Shown here: positions 43,241 to 49,561 of the stretch, piece after piece
Layout of the letters: every line of letters begins with the position of its first letter
Position numbering within the stretch: the first letter of the stretch is position 1
Source: Bacteroidales bacterium
GTDB lineage: Bacteria; Bacteroidota; Bacteroidia; Bacteroidales; GCA-2748055
Assembly (NCBI GenBank): GCA_030673645.1
Contig: DAOVIO010000008.1
Location: forward strand, 487 to 64,486
Length of the DNA stretch: 64,000 nt
Direction: 5' to 3'
Notes under the pieces: model-generated
What the model was told of the DNA's origin: nothing
Databases searched by the model: none
Seen by the model: only the letters and a program-made list of their open reading frames with translations
Translations under genes and position numbers: made by a program

Positions 43241-43281
43241 GGTCCCTCATCCATCGTCTATCGTCCACCGTCCCTCCACTC
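43241..43281. repeat. C-rich word tract (CCATCGTCTATCGTCCA CCGTCCCTCC) between convergent genes
   Basis: 43250-43267 (TCCATCGTCTATCGTCCA) is 17/18 identical to 49351-49368. CCACCGTCCCTC at 43265-43276 is identical to 49380-49391. Confidence 0.8.
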
Positions 43282-43497
43282 CTAATCCTCATCAAACTTT
43301 CTGTTCTCACGGAATAAAAGCGCAAAAATAAATACAATCACAGCGACTGATGCTAATATCACCATCATTGACTTAAACATTTTTTCAAGCAAATATTCCA
43401 TATCAATCACCTCCCATATACCCAGAATTGCAAGGATACAAAATAGCAATACTAATCCTGTAAGAAAGTAAGCAACAATTTTTTTTATTGAATTCAT
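43282..43497 (-). CDS. Small two-TM membrane protein (71 aa)
   Basis: Two clear hydrophobic helices and a charged C-terminus. No family was recognised. Confidence 0.5.
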   Translation of the reverse strand: MNSIKKIVAYFLTGLVLLFCILAILGIWEVIDMEYLLEKMFKSMMVILASVAVIVFIFALLFRENRKFDED

Positions 43498-43631
43498 GAT
43501 CTAAATATTAATTATTTATTTTTCTATAAATTAATTATCCTTGAATTAATATTGATACGGATTGTGTTTATACAACTAATAATGAATTTGGCAGACTTAC
43601 AGCATTTGAAATATATACTGGAAGAATACTT

Positions 43632-43663
43632 TTTGTTTGATGTAATTATTAGTATTATATTTG
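43632..43663 (+). promoter_or_regulatory. Bacteroidota-type promoter: TTTG (-33), 20 nt spacer, TATATTTG (-7)
   Basis: TTTG is at 43632-43635 and TATATTTG at 43656-43663. The TTG 'start' of track ORF 43661 is part of the -7 box. Confidence 0.5.
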
Positions 43664-43705
43664 CAATACGCGAATCGCGAAACGCGAGATAAAAAAATAT
43701 TGGTT

Positions 43706-44227
43706 ATGAAGAAACATAATGGAATGCGACCACAAGATATTGTTGTGCTAATGAAAATAATTGCACTAAGCAATGATAACTGGCGTAATATAGATATAGC
43801 TAATTCAATTCATTTAAGTCCATCTGAAGTATCGGAAGCCTTGAACAGATGTAAAATTGCAGGACTTATTGATTCAAAGAAAAGAAATGTAAATATTAAT
43901 TCGTTTATAGAATTTTTAATTTACGGATTAAAATATGTATTCCCGGTAGAACTGGGTGCTATTGTAAAAGGAATCCCTACAGCTCATTCTGCGTCTCCAA
44001 TAAATGAACATATTTCATCTGGGATTGATTTCATTGTATGGCCTTATGCAAAAGGTAACCATCGGGGACAAGCCATTGAGCCACTATATAAAACTTTGCC
44101 ACAAATAGTTCAAGAGGATGAATTATTCTACGAACTTTTAACCATAGTAGACACTATAAGAGTTGGACGGGTACGAGAAATAAAAATTGCAATTGATGAA
44201 TTAAATAAACGATTAAAACATGCCTAG
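43706..44227 (+). CDS. Winged-helix DNA-binding-like protein (N-terminal wHTH plus an uncharacterised C-terminal domain)
   Basis: From the ATG at 43706 it reads MKKHNGMRPQDIVVLMKIIALSNDNWRNIDIANSIHLSPSEVSEALNRCKIAGLI, a MarR/wHTH-like pattern. Confidence 0.6.
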   Translation: MKKHNGMRPQDIVVLMKIIALSNDNWRNIDIANSIHLSPSEVSEALNRCKIAGLIDSKKRNVNINSFIEFLIYGLKYVFPVELGAIVKGIPTAHSASPINEHISSGIDFIVWPYAKGNHRGQAIEPLYKTLPQIVQEDELFYELLTIVDTIRVGRVREIKIAIDELNKRLKHA

Positions 44228-44432
44228 TACAAATATTGTAATGCTGCAAACTGTTGTAATCGGCTTGGACGATTTAATAGATGATATTTTGAAGTTCATA
44301 AAACTGGTTGCAACCCAGAAAATGAATAACAGTTGTGCGCCAGGATGCCTGATTTCTGAGGATAGTGATCTGTCTAAAAAAGGTAGGTATATAGAGAAGT
44401 TAGTGGCAAGCTCAACACAAACCGAAAATTGA
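44220..44432 (+). CDS. Questionable 70 aa ORF overlapping the stop of the wHTH gene (ATGCCTAG); possibly a truncated partner gene
   Basis: The 8 nt overlap suggests translational coupling. The sequence after the stop has no long ORF. Confidence 0.25.
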   Translation: MPSTNIVMLQTVVIGLDDLIDDILKFIKLVATQKMNNSCAPGCLISEDSDLSKKGRYIEKLVASSTQTEN

Positions 44433-44706
44433 AACTTGATAAGCAGCAATAAAAAAAAACATTTGCTAGAAACCAACGAGCTGTATGAAATGGATAGCCA
44501 ATTGCTAACTAGTATATTCAAGTACCCGATTTATCACTTAATCGAAAATAATCCTAAAATATTTAATATATTTATTCTATTATCTTAATAGTTTGTGCAC
44601 CAACACATACACAGAACCTTAGAATTTTTAACAAAGCAGCAGAACATAATAAAGCAACCAATAAATCCAAATATTCATCTTAGTAAATAATTAACATATT
44701 TCATAA

Positions 44707-45009
44707 ATGAAGGTTTCGTTTAGAATAATACTTATTATAATAATGTTTGGGCTAATTAATAGTTGCAACTCAGAACTTGATAGAGACATTATAAATGAAT
44801 TAGAAAACTCACCCGAAGAGCTAATTATTAATGAAGACACCTTAAAACTTGAAGCATATTTATACAGAAATTTTATGCCAATTGTAATTGATCCATCTAA
44901 TTTACCGGATTTAGAAAATCATTCATCTCTAATAAGCATTAACAAACTTCAGGAAGAAAACGGGAATCAAAAAATTAGTAACTTAAATGATGACTTCAGT
45001 TTTATATAA
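44707..45009 (+). CDS. Small hypothetical lipoprotein (100 aa)
   Basis: Lipobox GLINSCN. Confidence 0.45.
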   Translation: MKVSFRIILIIIMFGLINSCNSELDRDIINELENSPEELIINEDTLKLEAYLYRNFMPIVIDPSNLPDLENHSSLISINKLQEENGNQKISNLNDDFSFI

Positions 45010-45185
45010 CTTATCAGTACTTATAATTAATGCTATGAGCGAGTTCCAAACCCGAATACAACACATCTTAATATCCTATGAACCAACCCATTTCCATAAT
45101 TTTAAAAAGAGCTGATTATTTTAACCCATATAACATAATCCGACCTTATTATATATCAAAAAACGAGATATTAATTTGATTTTAG

Positions 45186-45193
45186 TATATTTG
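45186..45193 (+). promoter_or_regulatory. Candidate -7 promoter box (TATATTTG) for the XRE-helicase-DprA operon
   Basis: Exact TAnnTTTG match 20 nt upstream of the ATG at 45214. Confidence 0.4.
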
Positions 45194-45213
45194 ATTTTTA
45201 GATATTCTTATCC

Positions 45214-45408
45214 ATGAATAGAATTAAAGAAGTTTTAGAGGAAAAAGGGATAAAACAAACCTGGTTAGCAGACAAGTTAGGTAAAAGTTATAATATGGTA
45301 AATGGTTACGTTCAGAATAGGCAGCAACCTAGATTAGAAGTTTTATTTGAAATTGCCAAAATACTAAAAGTTAATCCTAAAGACTTAATACAGGCTAATT
45401 ATGAATAA
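45214..45408 (+). CDS. XRE-family helix-turn-helix transcriptional regulator (64 aa)
   Basis: IKEVLEEKGIKQTWLADKLGKSYNMVNGYVQNRQQPRLEVLFEIAKILKVNPKDLI is a canonical HTH_3/Cro-C1 pattern. Confidence 0.88.
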   Translation: MNRIKEVLEEKGIKQTWLADKLGKSYNMVNGYVQNRQQPRLEVLFEIAKILKVNPKDLIQANYE

Positions 45409-47497
45409 AAATGAAGGATTAGAATTATTAAGAAAAGCACTAAATGATTCCACAGCCGAATTTAGAGAAGGACAATGGGAAGCAATAGATAGTTTAGTAA
45501 ATTACAAAAGAAAATTACTTGTTGTTGAGCGTACAGGATGGGGGAAAAGTTCCGTTTACTTTATCAGTACTAGAATATTAAGAGACCAAGGAAAAGGTAT
45601 AACTATTATTATTTCACCGTTACTTGCATTAATGCGAAACCAAGTAGAGGCTGCAGAAAGACTTGGAATAATAGCCATTTCAATAAATTCCTCAAATCTT
45701 GAAGATTGGGAAAATAGTAAGCAAGATGTTCTTAATAACAAAGTCGATGCACTTTTAATTTCTCCTGAGAGATTAGCAAATGAAAACTTTATGAATAACA
45801 TTTTAAGACCAATAGCAGATAGAATTGGTTTATTTGTTGTGGATGAAGCACATTGTATATCAGATTGGGGTCATGATTTTAGACCTGATTATAGACGGAT
45901 TGTAAATATTTTAAAGTTTATGCCAGAAGGCATGCCAATTCTTGGAACAACTGCAACAGCTAATAATAGAGTGTCTGATGATATTGTTTCCCAACTTGGA
46001 GATATTGAAATTATTAGAGGAGTATTAACTAGAGAAAGTTTAATTTTACAAAATATAAAACTACAAGATCAAGCCTCTAGATTAGCTTGGTTAAAACAAA
46101 ATATTCAAAACCTACCTGGAAGTGGAATTATCTACACGCTAACCAAAAGAGATGCCCGACTAGTAACCGAATGGTTAATTGATTGTGACATTGAGGCAGC
46201 GTACTATTATTCAGGTGCAACTGATGAGAATTTTGAAGATTCAAATCAATATCGTCAATATGTTGAAGATGCTCTTTATAATAATGAAATTAAGGTTCTT
46301 GTAGCTACCACGGCGTTGGGTATGGGCTATGATAAGCCAGATTTAGGATTTGTGGTACATTATCAAGCACCTGGTTCAATTATTAGTTACTATCAACAGG
46401 TAGGTCGAGCAGGTCGAGCTATTAGAAAAGCTTATGGAATTCTTTTATCAGGACAGGAAGATAGTGATATTCATGCTTATTTTCGACAATCAGCGTTTCC
46501 TCCTGAAGATAGAGTTCAAGCTATATTAGATAAAATTGAAGAAGAAGATGGATTATCTGTTCCTGAATTAATGAAATATCTTAATTTGAGGAAGGGGCAA
46601 ATTGAACAAGTACTTAAATATCTTAGTGTAGAAGAATCATCACCAATAATTAAAATAGGACCAAAATGGACAAGAACTGCAGTTGATTATAAAATGGATT
46701 CTGAAAAGATTACAAGATTAACCAACCAGCGTCTTAATGAATGGCAAGATGTGGAAGCATATATTAGTACAACAGATTGCTTAATGAATTATTTGCAAAA
46801 ATCACTTGATGATCCTAAAAGTGCTATGTGTGGGAAGTGTGCTAATTGTAGAAAACAGGAAAGGTTTTCAGTAGATGTATTGCATGAAAATGTGGTAAAT
46901 GCAGCAATTTTTTTAAAACATTCTGAATTTGATATTAAGTTAAAGGTTAGGATAGAGTCGGATGCCTTATCGGAGTATGGTTTTAGAGGAAATCTTTCTC
47001 AAAGTTTACGAGGTGAAGTAGGAAAGTCATTATCAAGATGGGGAGATGCTGGATGGGGAAAAATTGTTGCACAGGATAAACATAATAATCACTTTCGAGA
47101 TGAATTAGTGGATGCTTTTGTTGAAATGATAAATGAAAGATGGAATATGGATCCCATCCCTACATGGGTTACTTGTATTCCATCAAACAGACATCCTGAT
47201 TTAGTTTCGTCGTTTGCAAAAAGAGTAGCAGATAAATTAGGTTTACCTTTTATTCCTGTTATTGATAAATTGGAAGAAACAGCACCCCAAAAGGAACAAG
47301 AAAATAGCTATTTCCAATGTGAAAATCTTGATGGTATTTTTGAAATAAACGATGATGTAAAAGTCGATGAACCAGTTTTACTTATTGATGATATAATTGA
47401 TTCTGGTTGGACTTTAACAATTGCATCCGCCTTGCTTAGGCAATCTGGTAGCGGATTAGTATATCCAACTACATTAACATCAACTTCAGTAAATTAA
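45401..47497 (+). CDS. RecQ-like superfamily-2 DNA helicase fused to a C-terminal ComF/GntX-type phosphoribosyltransferase (PRTase) domain
   Basis: The helicase motifs are ERTGWGKSSVYF (I), VVDEAHCISDWGHDFRPDY (II, the RecQ-specific DEAH..W.H.FR), TATA (III), VATTALGMGYDKPDLGFVVHY (V) and YYQQVGRAGR (VI). A wHTH and a CGKCANC motif follow. The C-terminal ~190 aa read CIPSNRHPDLVSSFAKRVADKLGLPF...QK...NLDGIFEI...PVLLIDDIIDSGWTLTIASALLRQSG, a PRPP-loop pattern. The start overlaps the XRE stop by 8 nt (ATGAATAA). Confidence 0.9.
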   Translation: MNKNEGLELLRKALNDSTAEFREGQWEAIDSLVNYKRKLLVVERTGWGKSSVYFISTRILRDQGKGITIIISPLLALMRNQVEAAERLGIIAISINSSNLEDWENSKQDVLNNKVDALLISPERLANENFMNNILRPIADRIGLFVVDEAHCISDWGHDFRPDYRRIVNILKFMPEGMPILGTTATANNRVSDDIVSQLGDIEIIRGVLTRESLILQNIKLQDQASRLAWLKQNIQNLPGSGIIYTLTKRDARLVTEWLIDCDIEAAYYYSGATDENFEDSNQYRQYVEDALYNNEIKVLVATTALGMGYDKPDLGFVVHYQAPGSIISYYQQVGRAGRAIRKAYGILLSGQEDSDIHAYFRQSAFPPEDRVQAILDKIEEEDGLSVPELMKYLNLRKGQIEQVLKYLSVEESSPIIKIGPKWTRTAVDYKMDSEKITRLTNQRLNEWQDVEAYISTTDCLMNYLQKSLDDPKSAMCGKCANCRKQERFSVDVLHENVVNAAIFLKHSEFDIKLKVRIESDALSEYGFRGNLSQSLRGEVGKSLSRWGDAGWGKIVAQDKHNNHFRDELVDAFVEMINERWNMDPIPTWVTCIPSNRHPDLVSSFAKRVADKLGLPFIPVIDKLEETAPQKEQENSYFQCENLDGIFEINDDVKVDEPVLLIDDIIDSGWTLTIASALLRQSGSGLVYPTTLTSTSVN

Positions 47498-47501
47498 GAT
47501 T

Positions 47502-48755
47502 ATGATTACAGAAAGGACAAAAGCAATATTATTATTTACATCTTACTTCGCAAAGAGTTCGGATAGAAACTTGAAGCCATTAACGACAAGTGAATGGAAT
47601 AGGCTTGTACGTTGGTTGCAAACGAATTCAATTAATCCTGAAGATTTTTTAACTAAGGATATTGACTCATTACTTTATGGTTGGCAGGATGAAACTATAA
47701 CTGTAGAAAGAGTTATAGCATTACTAGAACGAAAATCAGGATTGGCAATAGCACTAGACAAGTGGATTAAAGTTGGGATTTGGATAATTAATAGAGGCGA
47801 TAAACTGTACCCCAGAAAACTTAAAGAAAGATTAAAAGAGAATGTACCTCCAATATTGTTTGGCATTGGCAATGTTGAATTGTTAAATCAAAAATTCGTT
47901 GGTGTTGTAGGTGCAAGGAAAACTAGTGAAAAGGAACTTCAAGATACAAAACATATCGGAGCAAGCATAAGTGAAAATAATTATGGTGTTGTTTCAGGAG
48001 GAGCAAAAGGCGTAGATGAATCAGCTATGCTTGGAGCTTTAGAAGCAGATGGTTATTGTGTTGGGTTTGTAGCGGATTCATTGATTAAAAAATCGACTTC
48101 TAGTATTTTTCGTAAGCACATTATAAATAAAAAACTGTGTTTAGTATCGCCTTACAATCCAGAAGCAGGTTTCAATGTTGGTAATGCAATGGCTAGGAAT
48201 AAATTAATCTACACTCAGTCAGAAGCAACAATTGTTATGAAATCGGATACAAAAGGGGGAACATGGGAAGGTGCTAAAGAAAACATAAAGAAACAATGGG
48301 TACCTCTTTGGGTAATAGATTACCAAGAGAAAGGGAATGAGGAAATTATCAAAATGGGAGCAAAAAGACTGTTAATTGGAGAAGTGCTAAGAATTTCTGA
48401 TTTAATCAAAATAGAATCTCCTAAACAATATAAACCAGATTTGTTTTCTTCTGCAAATAAAGAATTTTCATCAAATGATTTAAAACAGAATATAGTGGTA
48501 TCAGAAACGAATAAAAGCGAAATTCAGATTAAGATAGAAGAAGCTTCATTATTCGATTTGTTTTTAGTGAAACTCGTTGACTCATTCAAAAACAAGACTA
48601 TTACTAAAAAGGAAATGAAAGAGCAGTTAGATATTACTAATAGTCAATTGGATGAATGGTTGAGAATTGGGACAGAGAAAGAGTTTATTATAAAAAAAAA
48701 TAAACCTGTTTCATTTATGATTAACCCAAACAAACATATTAGAGTAGTTTTGTGA
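47502..48755 (+). CDS. DprA/Smf-like (SLOG Rossmann) protein with a C-terminal winged-helix extension
   Basis: YPRKLKE...PPILFGIGNVELL...VGVVGARKTSEKELQDTKHIGASISENNYGVVSGGAKGVDESAMLGALEADG..VGFVADSL...NAMARNKLIYTQSEATIV...GGTWEGA follows the DprA core pattern. It starts 4 nt after the helicase stop. Confidence 0.85.
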   Translation: MITERTKAILLFTSYFAKSSDRNLKPLTTSEWNRLVRWLQTNSINPEDFLTKDIDSLLYGWQDETITVERVIALLERKSGLAIALDKWIKVGIWIINRGDKLYPRKLKERLKENVPPILFGIGNVELLNQKFVGVVGARKTSEKELQDTKHIGASISENNYGVVSGGAKGVDESAMLGALEADGYCVGFVADSLIKKSTSSIFRKHIINKKLCLVSPYNPEAGFNVGNAMARNKLIYTQSEATIVMKSDTKGGTWEGAKENIKKQWVPLWVIDYQEKGNEEIIKMGAKRLLIGEVLRISDLIKIESPKQYKPDLFSSANKEFSSNDLKQNIVVSETNKSEIQIKIEEASLFDLFLVKLVDSFKNKTITKKEMKEQLDITNSQLDEWLRIGTEKEFIIKKNKPVSFMINPNKHIRVVL

Positions 48756-48797
48756 TGCTAACCCTTCGCAAACATACACATTACCAAGTCGCTTAAA

Positions 48798-48947
48798 ATG
48801 GCTGACACACAGTCCAAAACTTGTCACCCATTGATTCTTCTCAGGAAAAGTGAGAAAGATGTGGATTTAGTAAAAACAATCAACTCTATACCCATTGGGA
48901 AGCTATCAAGGATTGAACAAATGATAAAAGAAGAAATCAAACGATAG
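48798..48947 (+). CDS. Questionable 49 aa ORF (MADTQSKTCHPLILLRKSEKDVDLVKTINSIPIGKLSRIEQMIKEEIKR)
   Basis: Translated manually; it is below the ORF-track cutoff. No RBS or promoter evidence was found. Confidence 0.2.
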   Translation: MADTQSKTCHPLILLRKSEKDVDLVKTINSIPIGKLSRIEQMIKEEIKR

Positions 48948-49017
48948 GATAAAGCAACTATACCTGATTTTTATATAATATTTCGTTAACTGAATAATAA
49001 ATCAGAACAAATTTGTT

Positions 49018-49300
49018 TCGGGCTTACAGCCCTTTATTTTCAATCGTATTAGCACAGGGTTTCGCAATGCTTCACCCTGTGCTAAAATGTTACGGGCCTT
49101 CAGCCCTATTAATTGCATTCCACCAAAACCACTCAACTCTTCAACCCCGGAGGGTGTGTTGCACTCTTTTATTTATTTGGACTGTATTATTCTTATAAAT
49201 AATTATTTGTATAAAAAAATGCAACACCCTCCGGGGTTGGGGGTTCGGTTCATATCTAAAACCCCAGGTGTGACTGGGGCTAATCTATTTTAACCACTCC
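49018..49300. repeat. GC-rich mini-hairpin mosaic with a long-range inverted repeat
   Basis: The hairpins are GGGCTTACAGCCC, AGCACAGGG..CCCTGTGCT, CCCCAGGTGTGACTGGGG and AACCACTCCGTGGTT. CAACCCCGGAGGGTGTGTTGCA (49142-49163) pairs with TGCAACACCCTCCGGGGTTG (49219-49238) over a 55 nt AT-rich loop. Confidence 0.75.
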
Positions 49301-49344
49301 GTGGTTAGTATTTTGGATTCCTCCATTATTCTTCAACAGAGTTT

Positions 49345-49442
49345 CCATCCTCCATCGTCTACCGTCCATTTTCCATCTTCCACCGTCCCTCGTCCATCCT
49401 CCACCATCCATCGTTCATCCTCCATCCTCCATCGTCCACCAC
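49345..49442. repeat. About 100 nt C-rich word tract (CCATCCT / CCATCGTC / CCACCGTCC units)
   Basis: It reads CCATCCTCCATCGTCTACCGTCCATTTTCCATCTTCCACCGTCCCTCGTCCATCCTCCACCATCCATCGTTCATCCTCCATCCTCCATCGTCCACC. It belongs to the same word family as 43241-43281. Confidence 0.8.
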
Positions 49443-49499
49443 ATCTCTTAACATTTTTTAACGCAAATTCAACCAAAATACCCCCCATAAGCCCCTTAC

Positions 49500-49507
49500 T
49501 AATTTTG
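49500..49507 (+). promoter_or_regulatory. Candidate -7 promoter box (TAATTTTG) for the MoxR/Bat operon
   Basis: Exact TAnnTTTG match 55 nt upstream of the ATG at 49562. Confidence 0.35.
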
Positions 49508-49561
49508 AAAAACGGTAATTAATAATGACTTTTGTAGAGTCTTTTTATAAATTGTAAAATT

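What the first reader, a model, noticed from the sequence alone, without database searches (positions are those of the whole stretch)
45186..48755. XRE regulator, RecQ-like helicase fused to a ComF-type PRTase, and a DprA-like protein in one tightly coupled operon
Seen in sequence: three genes are packed with an 8 nt overlap (ATGAATAA) and a 4 nt gap behind a TATATTTG -7 box.
- The 698 aa middle protein has every RecQ-type SF2 motif (TGWGKS, DEAHCISDWGHDFRPDY, TATA, QQVGRAGR), a wHTH and a CGKCANC motif.
- It ends in a ~190 aa phosphoribosyltransferase fold of the ComF/GntX type (PVLLIDDIIDSGWTLT PRPP loop).
- The 417 aa third protein has the DprA/Smf Rossmann (SLOG) core plus a C-terminal wHTH.
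Established knowledge: in natural transformation, ComFA (helicase), ComFC (PRTase-like) and DprA cooperate on incoming ssDNA. From memory (to be verified), a two-gene DprA-like + PRTase pair was reported as an anti-phage system from P2/P4 hotspots and is listed in DefenseFinder as DprA-PPRT.
Inference: this locus puts the helicase and PRTase into one polypeptide, keeps DprA as partner, adds an XRE switch, and sits in a small accessory segment with no other competence genes nearby. I do not recognise this architecture as a characterised system. It could be a helicase-armed variant of DprA-PRTase immunity that senses or processes foreign ssDNA or replication intermediates. It could also be a nucleotide-modifying or signal-generating module, given the PRTase chemistry plus the SLOG nucleotide-binding fold.
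Basis: partly seen in the sequence, partly recalled or inferred. Interest (0 to 1): 0.85.

Follow-up and report, generated by a model that had tools for sequence, protein, structure and literature searches.

The report
Known PsyrTA/RqlHI defence operon with XRE
The three genes are real and intact, but the helicase-PRTase fusion plus DprA-like partner is the already described PsyrTA (RqlHI) toxin-antitoxin anti-phage system, here with a small XRE regulator gene added in front that only close relatives carry.

Summary
Three tightly packed genes lie at 45214-48755: an XRE, a 698-aa RecQ-like helicase fused to a PRTase, and a 417-aa DprA-like protein. The interpretation "not a characterised system" does not hold.

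- **Identity:** both large proteins match the PADLOC models PsyrT (E 3e-301) and PsyrA (E 3e-133) end to end. They are 57% and 38% identical to an E. coli pair with the architecture of the RqlH/RqlI system studied in E. coli.
- **Published function:** PsyrTA/RqlHI is a toxin-antitoxin pair (Sberro 2013; Russell and Mulvey 2015) and an anti-phage system (Millman 2022). It is related to ShosTA (DprA-PRTase). Its biochemical mechanism is still unknown.
- **Linkage:** in 85 related loci the DprA-like gene follows the fusion in 83.
- **XRE:** the gene with the same 8-nt overlap occurs only in the closest Bacteroidota relatives. Four others carry decayed remnants, so it is an ancestral, dispensable regulator of one subclade.
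- **Context:** the operon lies in a variable segment next to a decayed second defence module, with no competence genes nearby.

Verdict: a new member of a known kind; low interest.

The parts
45159..45171 (+). Conserved upstream motif AAAAACGAGATAT. It may be an operator or a promoter-upstream element.
   Evidence: It is conserved in the aligned upstream regions of all XRE-bearing relatives and most remnant-bearing ones. Its function is inferred.
45186..45193 (+). TATATTTG, a candidate Bacteroidota -7 promoter box 20 nt before the XRE start. It lies inside a 15-nt direct repeat (45174-45206).
   Evidence: Sequence. Repeat. Aligned relatives have TATCTTTG, TAACTTGG or TATATTTG at the same column. 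The motif alone is at chance frequency.
45214..45408 (+). XRE/Cro-C1-type HTH protein of 64 aa, a lineage-specific regulator gene. Its stop overlaps the psyrT start by 8 nt.
   Evidence: HTH_3 4.6e-11 and HTH_26 6e-10. Orthologues with the same -8 overlap are in L007, L008, L010 and L090.
45401..47497 (+). psyrT (rqlH): a 698-aa RecQ-like SF2 helicase fused to a C-terminal PRTase; the toxin/effector.
   Evidence: PADLOC PsyrT 3.2e-301, residues 2-697 on model positions 2-686 of 689. RecQ-family subfamily TIGR00614 scores 240 bits against a cut-off of 219.8. It is 57% identical to the E. coli homologue over its full length. AF2 model pLDDT 86.7.
45401..46870 (+). RecQ catalytic core of PsyrT (residues 1 to about 490): helicase lobes (K49, DEAH 148-151), winged helix, and the 4-Cys zinc site (C460, C477, C480, C483).
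   Evidence: Foldseek against RecQ 4tmu/1oyw: TM 0.68, E 1e-27. The Cys and motif residues are invariant in 46 homologues.
46886..47494 (+). C-terminal domain of PsyrT (residues 496-698): a beta-rich subdomain plus a type I PRTase fold. The PRPP loop VLLIDDIIDSGWT spans residues 659-671 (nt 47375-47413).
   Evidence: Domain model pLDDT 89. Foldseek: PurF 1ecb E 1.1e-4, APRT, and ComF 7p0h with TMq 0.49. The profile hits PRPP-loop enzymes. D663, D664, D667 and S668 are invariant.
47502..48755 (+). psyrA (rqlI): a 417-aa DprA-like antitoxin. It has a Rossmann/SLOG core (residues 90-290) and a C-terminal HTH-like region (residues ~345-410).
   Evidence: PADLOC PsyrA 3.4e-133, full length. DNA_processg_A 5.9e-39. 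It is 38% identical to the E. coli partner end to end, including the C-terminal motif. The HTH itself is only weakly supported.
49020..49032 (+). First terminator-like hairpin downstream of psyrA (GGGCTTACAGCCC followed by a T-rich tail).
   Evidence: Consensus scan only. Function is inferred.

Best explanation
This is an intact PsyrTA (RqlHI) toxin-antitoxin type anti-phage defence operon in an uncultured Bacteroidota genome. It is preceded by a small XRE-family transcription regulator found only in its subclade.

**Proposed mechanism**
1. One promoter just upstream of the XRE gene drives all three genes. The 8-nt overlap and the 4-nt gap couple their translation. The layout is shown by sequence; the coupling is inferred.
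2. XRE most likely represses its own promoter and keeps expression low (inferred).
3. PsyrT is a 3'-5' RecQ-like helicase carrying a PRPP-dependent phosphoribosyltransferase domain, and that domain is the toxic effector. In E. coli RqlH the PRPP-loop aspartates are needed for SOS induction, filamentation and growth arrest. The same residues are conserved here.
4. PsyrA is a DprA-like protein. In E. coli it binds RqlH, and the binding is lost when the PRTase domain is removed. It neutralises the toxicity. The helicase activity also restrains the PRTase.
5. On phage infection the balance is lost. The trigger is unknown. It could be loss of a labile antitoxin after host shut-off, as in ShosTA, or the helicase meeting phage DNA intermediates.
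6. The released PRTase then damages DNA or nucleotide metabolism and stops replication of both phage and host (inferred by analogy; the substrate is unknown).
For: **Identity**
- Both proteins match the PADLOC PsyrT and PsyrA models over their full length.
- They are 57% and 38% identical, end to end, to an E. coli homologue pair.
- Structure models confirm a RecQ core and a PRTase fold.
- The residues tested in E. coli (K49, D148 and the PRPP-loop aspartates) are conserved.

**Gene linkage**
- psyrA follows psyrT directly in 83 of 85 related loci.

**Defence and mobile context**
- In E. coli the pair sits inside a type I R-M operon.
- Insertion sites differ between close relatives.
- Synteny with the host's relatives breaks exactly at this segment.
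- A decayed second defence module lies next door.

**Literature**
- TA behaviour, PRTase-dependent genotoxicity, and RqlH-RqlI binding that is lost when the PRTase domain is deleted (PMC4670107).
- Phage defence (Millman 2022).
- The sister system ShosTA (PMC11961720).

**XRE as a dispensable regulator**
- It is present only in the closest relatives. Remnants occur where psyrTA is still intact.
Against: - Nothing was tested functionally for this locus.
- The biochemical activity of any PsyrT PRTase is unknown.
- One native E. coli PsyrTA gave no measurable protection against the phages tried, only a growth defect.
- No PsyrT relative was found in viral contigs or phage genomes, so a phage or satellite origin is not shown.
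- The promoter and operator are inferred. The -7 motif alone occurs at chance frequency.
- The HTH of PsyrA is only weakly supported by sequence.
Confidence: 0.85

Rival explanations
1. It is a purely selfish toxin-antitoxin addiction module. It stabilises the accessory segment and gives no real benefit against phage.
For: - PsyrTA was first found as a TA pair.
- The antitoxin deletion could not be transformed into cells, possibly because of toxicity.
- The native E. coli NILS69 system gave no protection and caused a growth defect.
- The neighbouring genes here are decayed while this operon stays intact.
Against: - Millman 2022 reports phage resistance for PsyrTA.
- The E. coli copy is embedded inside a type I R-M operon.
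- PADLOC lists it as a defence system.
- TA function and defence do not exclude each other.
Confidence: 0.12
2. It is a housekeeping genome-maintenance pair: a RecQ-like repair helicase with a DprA-like ssDNA-binding or RecA-loading partner acting on the cell's own DNA.
For: - M. smegmatis RqlH is a bona fide 3'-5' helicase (cited).
- Russell and Mulvey proposed a cooperative DNA-processing function.
- ShosA is thought to promote recombination repair.
- The RecQ-family subfamily model is passed.
Against: - Distribution is patchy and insertion sites differ among close relatives.
- Relatives of the host lineage lack it at this position.
- It scores well below the equivalog cut-offs for RecQ (278 against 640) and DprA (95 against 191).
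- Deleting the whole operon had no fitness cost in E. coli.
Confidence: 0.05
3. It is a natural-transformation module analogous to ComFA (helicase), ComFC (PRTase-like) and DprA, processing incoming ssDNA.
For: - The domains parallel those proteins.
- H. pylori ComF aligns over the whole C-terminal domain (TMq 0.49).
- PGAP names a split-off PRTase part 'ComF family protein'.
Against: - The helicase is of the RecQ type; none of the listed matches is a ComFA model.
- The DprA equivalog cut-off is failed.
- No pilus or com genes are in the neighbourhood.
- E. coli carriers showed no transformation.
- The pair behaves as a TA system.
Confidence: 0.02

Closest known systems
PsyrTA / RqlHI (Sberro 2013; Russell and Mulvey 2015, PMC4670107; Millman 2022)
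   Same: - Two core genes in the same order and tightly coupled.
- A RecQ-like helicase of about 700 aa with a C-terminal PRTase, followed by a DprA-like protein with a C-terminal HTH-like region.
- Full-length PADLOC model matches.
- 57% and 38% identity to an E. coli pair of the same architecture.
- The residues tested in E. coli are conserved.
   Different: - An XRE gene is translationally coupled in front, whereas E. coli F11 has a two-gene operon.
- The host is a Bacteroidota lineage.
- The context differs: there is no flanking R-M system here.
ShosTA (DprA-PPRT; Rousset 2022; Millman 2022; Pu 2025, PMC11961720)
   Same: - A PRTase-domain toxin is paired with a DprA-like antitoxin.
- It is a TA-type defence.
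- PsyrA hits ShosA models (1e-27) and the ShosA structures 8zva and 9vzo.
   Different: - ShosT carries an N-terminal pyrophosphatase-like domain, not a helicase.
- The gene sizes differ.
- PsyrA matches its own model far better than ShosA (443 against 95 bits).
ComFA / ComFC / DprA of natural transformation
   Same: An SF2 helicase, a PRTase-fold protein and a DprA-fold protein occur together. ComF aligns structurally with the C-terminal domain.
   Different: - The helicase is RecQ-type and is fused to the PRTase.
- The DprA equivalog threshold is failed.
- There is no com context.
- The pair shows toxin-antitoxin behaviour.
Canonical RecQ, and DpdF of the dpd 7-deazaguanine system
   Same: The RecQ catalytic core fold and motifs are shared. 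There are partial PADLOC DpdF hits (7e-84, residues 19-410).
   Different: - It fails the RecQ equivalog (278 against 640 bits) and the DpdF equivalog (142 against 550).
- No HRDC domain was detected.
- The C-terminal PRTase is not part of canonical RecQ.
- No dpd genes are nearby.

Membership tests
PsyrTA / RqlHI | Toxin gene with an N-terminal RecQ-like SF2 helicase (Walker A lysine, DEAH box) | tested here: met
   DEAD 3e-24 and Helicase_C 2e-13. TIGR00614 scores 240 against a cut-off of 219.8. Foldseek to RecQ gives TM 0.68. K49 and D148-H151 are present.
PsyrTA / RqlHI | C-terminal PRTase domain in the same polypeptide, with an acidic PRPP loop | tested here: met
   Type I PRTase fold. 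The PRPP-loop profile matches. LLIDDIIDSGWT is conserved. The Pfam sequence hit alone is sub-threshold.
PsyrTA / RqlHI | Full-length match to the curated PsyrT and PsyrA models | tested here: met
   PADLOC PsyrT 3.2e-301 (2-697 on 2-686/689). PADLOC PsyrA 3.4e-133 (2-407 on 3-396/398).
PsyrTA / RqlHI | DprA-like partner gene immediately downstream, co-oriented | tested here: met
   A 4-nt gap here. The same arrangement occurs in 83 of 85 related loci.
PsyrTA / RqlHI | The partner physically binds the toxin (binding lost without the PRTase domain) | not testable with these tools
   Shown for E. coli RqlH/RqlI by co-immunoprecipitation. No complex prediction tool was available here.
PsyrTA / RqlHI | Toxicity of PsyrT neutralised by PsyrA; protection against phage | not testable with these tools
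   Literature only. One native E. coli system showed no protection.
ShosTA (DprA-PPRT) | Toxin made of a pyrophosphatase-like N-terminal domain plus a PRTase, with no helicase | tested here: not met
   The N-terminal 490 residues are a RecQ core. ShosT architecture is described in PMC11961720.
ShosTA (DprA-PPRT) | DprA-like antitoxin | tested here: met
   ShosA models at 1e-27. ShosA structures at 3e-12. The PsyrA model fits far better.
Competence ComFA/ComFC/DprA | Canonical DprA (equivalog) | tested here: not met
   TIGR00732 scores 94.9 bits against a cut-off of 191.
Competence ComFA/ComFC/DprA | ComFC-type PRTase-like protein | tested here: inconclusive
   ComF 7p0h aligns over 199 columns with TMq 0.49 but E 4.5e-3, ranking 42nd behind PurF and APRT.
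Competence ComFA/ComFC/DprA | Genomic association with com or pilus genes | tested here: not met
   The neighbours are folD, argS, a glycosyltransferase, and the MoxR/BatA-D operon.
Canonical RecQ | RecQ equivalog score | tested here: not met
   TIGR01389 scores 278 against 640. PRK11057 scores 202 against 1015.

The most novel reading that the evidence does not exclude
The XRE protein could be a true third component of a distinct PsyrTA subtype rather than a plain autorepressor. It might act as a phage-responsive switch, for example inactivated by a phage anti-repressor or protease, that induces the helicase-PRTase on infection. The conserved AAAAACGAGATAT element would then be its operator. 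More broadly, the family's PRTase might phosphoribosylate DNA bases directly while the helicase unwinds the target, as Russell and Mulvey speculated. This small, intact Bacteroidota operon would be a convenient model for testing that idea.
Probability: 0.1. Interest if true: 0.45.

Novelty: new member of a known kind. Interest (0 to 1): 0.18.

Why it matters
It matters little as a discovery. The architecture is catalogued (it has PADLOC models) and has been studied genetically. Three points have modest value:

1. It documents PsyrTA in a poorly sampled Bacteroidota lineage.
2. It shows that one subclade acquired a translationally coupled XRE regulator and then lost it repeatedly. This argues that the regulator is dispensable and that PsyrA alone is enough to contain the toxin.
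3. The biochemical activity of the PsyrT PRTase is still unknown for the whole family, so any tractable member can help settle that open question.

Tried and rejected
- **Genome scan with the single protein:** I switched to an alignment of the family-specific C-terminal half on metagenome contigs, which gave 80 loci.
- **Viral contigs and phage genomes:** no PsyrT-type relatives, only RecQ cores. A phage or satellite origin was therefore not pursued.
- **Heptamer arrays as island borders:** the (TCCATCG)n arrays at 43243-43287 and 49344-49451 looked like borders. I rejected this because the left array lies outside the conserved 71-aa core gene and is absent from relatives.
- **Other short ORFs overlapping psyrT starts:** in other loci these are low-complexity read-throughs in GC-rich DNA, not regulators.
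- **Fulvivirga's 71-aa upstream gene:** it is unrelated to the window's 71-aa gene.
- **Rfam on the flanks:** only sub-threshold chance hits.
- **Full-length fold search:** it was swamped by RecQ structures, so the PRTase domain was folded and searched separately.
- **The PDC-M21A-like gene as a partner of the PsyrT PRTase:** rejected. It is absent from the other 85 PsyrTA loci, and elsewhere it leads a different operon.
- **Literature search for PDC-M21:** found nothing.


Full report
**1. Observation**

The window carries three co-oriented ORFs on the + strand:

| Gene | Coordinates | Length |
|---|---|---|
| XRE | 45214-45408 | 64 aa |
| psyrT | 45401-47497 | 698 aa |
| psyrA | 47502-48755 | 417 aa |

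- The first stop overlaps the second start in ATGAATAA (45401-45408). The second and third genes are 4 nt apart. TATATTTG lies at 45186-45193, 20 nt before the first ATG.
- Open frames of 698 and 417 codons in DNA of about 33% G+C are not chance, and the homology statistics below settle the matter.
- The -7 box carries little weight alone. TAnnTTTG occurs 95 times in the window against 94 expected. Its support comes from position and from the same column holding TATCTTTG, TAACTTGG or TATATTTG in aligned relatives.

**2. Domains**

*Sequence matches*
- Pfam: HTH_3 for gene 1. DEAD, Helicase_C and ResIII, plus sub-threshold RecQ_Zn_bind and Pribosyltran, for gene 2. DNA_processg_A (5.9e-39) and SLOG LDcluster4 for gene 3.
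- NCBIfam: gene 2 passes the RecQ-family subfamily model (240 against 219.8 bits). It fails the RecQ (278 against 640) and DpdF equivalogs. Gene 3 fails the DprA equivalog (95 against 191).

*Structure models*
- An AlphaFold2 model of the whole 698-aa protein is confident (pLDDT 86.7, pTM 0.79).
- It superposes on RecQ catalytic cores over about 490 residues (4tmu and 1oyw, TM 0.68, E 1e-27).
- Four cysteines (C460, C477, C480, C483) are invariant in 46 homologues.
- Residues 496-698 were folded separately (pLDDT 89). They give a type I PRTase fold, with best E-values for the PurF PRTase domain and for APRT (about 1e-4).
- H. pylori ComF aligns over the whole domain (199 columns, TMq 0.49) but with a weaker E-value of 4.5e-3. 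'PRTase' is therefore confirmed, and 'ComF type' is only a loose resemblance.

*C-terminus of PsyrA*
- The last ~70 residues carry a family-wide motif (L.L.K.QL..WLK....KPVRY; F, Q and W invariant).
- It looks like a helix-turn-helix plus a wing, but it matches HTH profiles only marginally.

**3. What it is**

- PADLOC's models give full-length matches: PsyrT 3.2e-301 (999 bits) and PsyrA 3.4e-133 (443 bits).
- The literature identifies PsyrTA, also called RqlHI, as a toxin-antitoxin pair found by shotgun-cloning bias (Sberro 2013).
- Millman et al. 2022 showed that it protects against phage. They grouped it with ShosTA because both have a DprA-like antitoxin and a PRTase toxin.
- Russell and Mulvey 2015 dissected the E. 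coli pair:
  - RqlH is a RecQ-like helicase with a C-terminal PRTase described as 'unique among known helicases'.
  - RqlH alone causes SOS induction, filamentation and growth arrest.
  - Deleting the PRTase domain or mutating its PRPP pocket (D663A, DIVD to EVME) abolishes this.
  - Helicase-dead K49A and D148A mutants are still harmful.
  - RqlI (a DprA-like region plus a C-terminal HTH) co-purifies with RqlH, and this is lost when the PRTase domain is deleted; RqlI neutralises the toxicity.
  - The two genes form an operon.
- The window proteins are 57% and 38% identical, end to end, to an E. coli homologue pair.
- K49, D148 and the DD..D PRPP-loop residues are conserved.
- No full-length PsyrT structure has been solved. 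ShosA and DprA structures match PsyrA.
- As of 2025 the PsyrT PRTase activity is still uncharacterised.

**4. Survey of relatives**

- The PsyrT-specific C-terminal half (residues 381-698) finds 268 clusters (50% identity) at E <= 1e-30 and 931 at E <= 1e-10. Most are about 690-730 aa, the same fusion.
- In 85 loci (2 genomes, 3 plasmids, 80 metagenome contigs), a PsyrA homologue lies directly downstream in 83. Gaps are mostly between -8 and +5 nt.
- On an E. coli IncF plasmid, and in 53 of 5426 complete E. coli genomes, the pair occurs as a nearly identical allele. On the plasmid it sits inside a type I R-M operon, hsdM-hsdS-psyrT-psyrA-hsdR.
- No relative was found in viral contigs or phage genomes.

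**5. The XRE gene**

- Clear orthologues with the same 8-nt overlap occur only in the closest relatives: L007, L008, L010 and Fulvivirga sp. L090.
- Other members of the same subclade (about 71% identity or more) carry remnants at the same place:

| Locus | XRE residues remaining | Note |
|---|---|---|
| L009 | 2-54 | Frame broken |
| L091 (Labilibaculum) | 1-29 | |
| L089 | 48-64 | |
| L011 | 1-12 | |

- psyrT is intact in all four. psyrA is full-length in L009, L011 and L091, but only 322 aa in L089.
- More distant loci have no XRE. E. coli F11 has a two-gene operon.
- The XRE gene was therefore ancestral to one Bacteroidota subclade and has been lost several times. It behaves as a dispensable regulator, not as a core component.
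- A conserved AAAAACGAGATAT element (45159-45171) and a 15-nt direct repeat over the -7 box (45174-45206) are candidate control sites. This is inference.

**6. Context**

- The window matches an ENA metagenome scaffold. The same arrangement is seen in three samples.
- The neighbours are folD, argS, a glycosyltransferase and a 71-aa membrane protein on one side, and the MoxR-DUF58-BatA-D operon on the other. There are no competence genes.
- In the nearest relatives of the host lineage (glycosyltransferase 59-67% identical), the order is argS, GT, the 71-aa gene, then an ABC-transporter operon. Synteny therefore breaks right after the 71-aa gene, and about 43500-49560 is a variable segment.
- PsyrTA sits at different sites in close relatives. 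In Labilibaculum it lies beside a resolvase and another large helicase.
- The segment also holds a 173-aa gene (43706-44227) matching PADLOC candidate PDC-M21A (4.9e-48).
- In intact loci that gene leads an operon with a 230-aa partner, a type I S subunit, an AAA ATPase and HsdM.
- Here the partner is cut down to a 70-aa ORF that shares only its first ~13-20 residues. This is a decayed second defence module.

**7. Mechanism**

*Shown in relatives*
- The toxicity depends on the PRTase.
- The DprA-like partner binds RqlH, needs the PRTase domain to do so, and neutralises the toxicity.
- The helicase has 3'-5' activity.
- The system protects against phage.

*Shown here by sequence*
- All catalytic motifs are conserved.
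- The genes are tightly coupled.
- The context is variable and defence-rich.

*Inferred*
- XRE autorepression.
- The trigger: antitoxin decay after host shut-off, as in ShosTA, or helicase sensing of phage DNA.
- The chemistry of the PRTase.

**8. Verdict**

The claim that the architecture is uncharacterised is wrong.
- This is a new Bacteroidota member of the known PsyrTA/RqlHI system, with a lineage-specific XRE regulator.
- Interest is low.

Noticed in passing
window 43706-44432: A 173-aa gene matches PADLOC candidate PDC-M21A (4.9e-48) and, weakly, Pfam 'wHTH-PRTase associated'. It is 77-90% identical to thousands of Bacteroidota proteins. In intact loci (L095, L096) it overlaps a 230-aa partner by 8 nt and precedes type I R-M S, AAA-ATPase and HsdM genes. 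Here the partner is truncated to a 70-aa ORF that shares only its N-terminus, so this is a decayed second defence module.
   Followed up: yes
window 43243-43287 and 49344-49451: Tandem heptamer arrays (TCCATCG)n in the same orientation occur only at these two sites in 64 kb (10 hits against 0.03 expected). They bracket the variable segment plus the conserved 71-aa gene. They are absent at this position in relatives (L093 has a different CTCACT-type array), so they are probably not att sites. Their function is unknown.
   Followed up: partly
window 49013-49245: The non-coding stretch after psyrA holds nested inverted repeats. One set is GGGCTTACAGCCC ... AGCACAGGGT/ACCCTGTGCT ... GGGCCTTCAGCCC. 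There is also a perfect 16-nt stem (49142-49157 with 49224-49239) around a 66-nt AT-rich loop. Rfam gives only sub-threshold hits. It may be a MITE-like element or a terminator cluster.
   Followed up: partly
L009:714-872; L091:7881-7967; L089:7955-8005; L011:5368-5403: Decayed remnants of the XRE gene lie directly upstream of intact psyrT genes in relatives. This shows repeated loss of the regulator.
   Followed up: yes
L003 (E. coli plasmid NZ_OX030731.1) 2694-12773: psyrT-psyrA is inserted between hsdS and hsdR of a type I R-M operon, with a small HTH gene upstream of hsdM. The same allele is in 53 of 5426 complete E. coli genomes. In one genome (H72) an IS3 element splits the gene, and the detached PRTase part is annotated 'ComF family protein'.
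   Followed up: partly
P0355 (2597 aa), P0328 (1720 aa), P0326 (1441 aa), P0361 (1244 aa); also P0099 (990 aa), L019, L037: The PsyrT C-terminal module (winged helix, zinc site, PRTase) also occurs at the C-terminus of much larger proteins, and some PsyrT homologues have extra N-terminal extensions of about 300 aa. These architectures were not examined.
   Followed up: no
L089:10097-11065: In the 84%-identical relative, PsyrA is only 322 aa and lacks the C-terminal HTH-like region. The XRE there is reduced to a 17-residue remnant. Both DNA-binding modules may have been lost together.
   Followed up: no
window 45174-45206: A 15-nt direct repeat (ATTTGATTTTAG.., 2.2 copies) spans the candidate -7 box upstream of the XRE gene. 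It could be an operator or a duplicated promoter element.
   Followed up: partly
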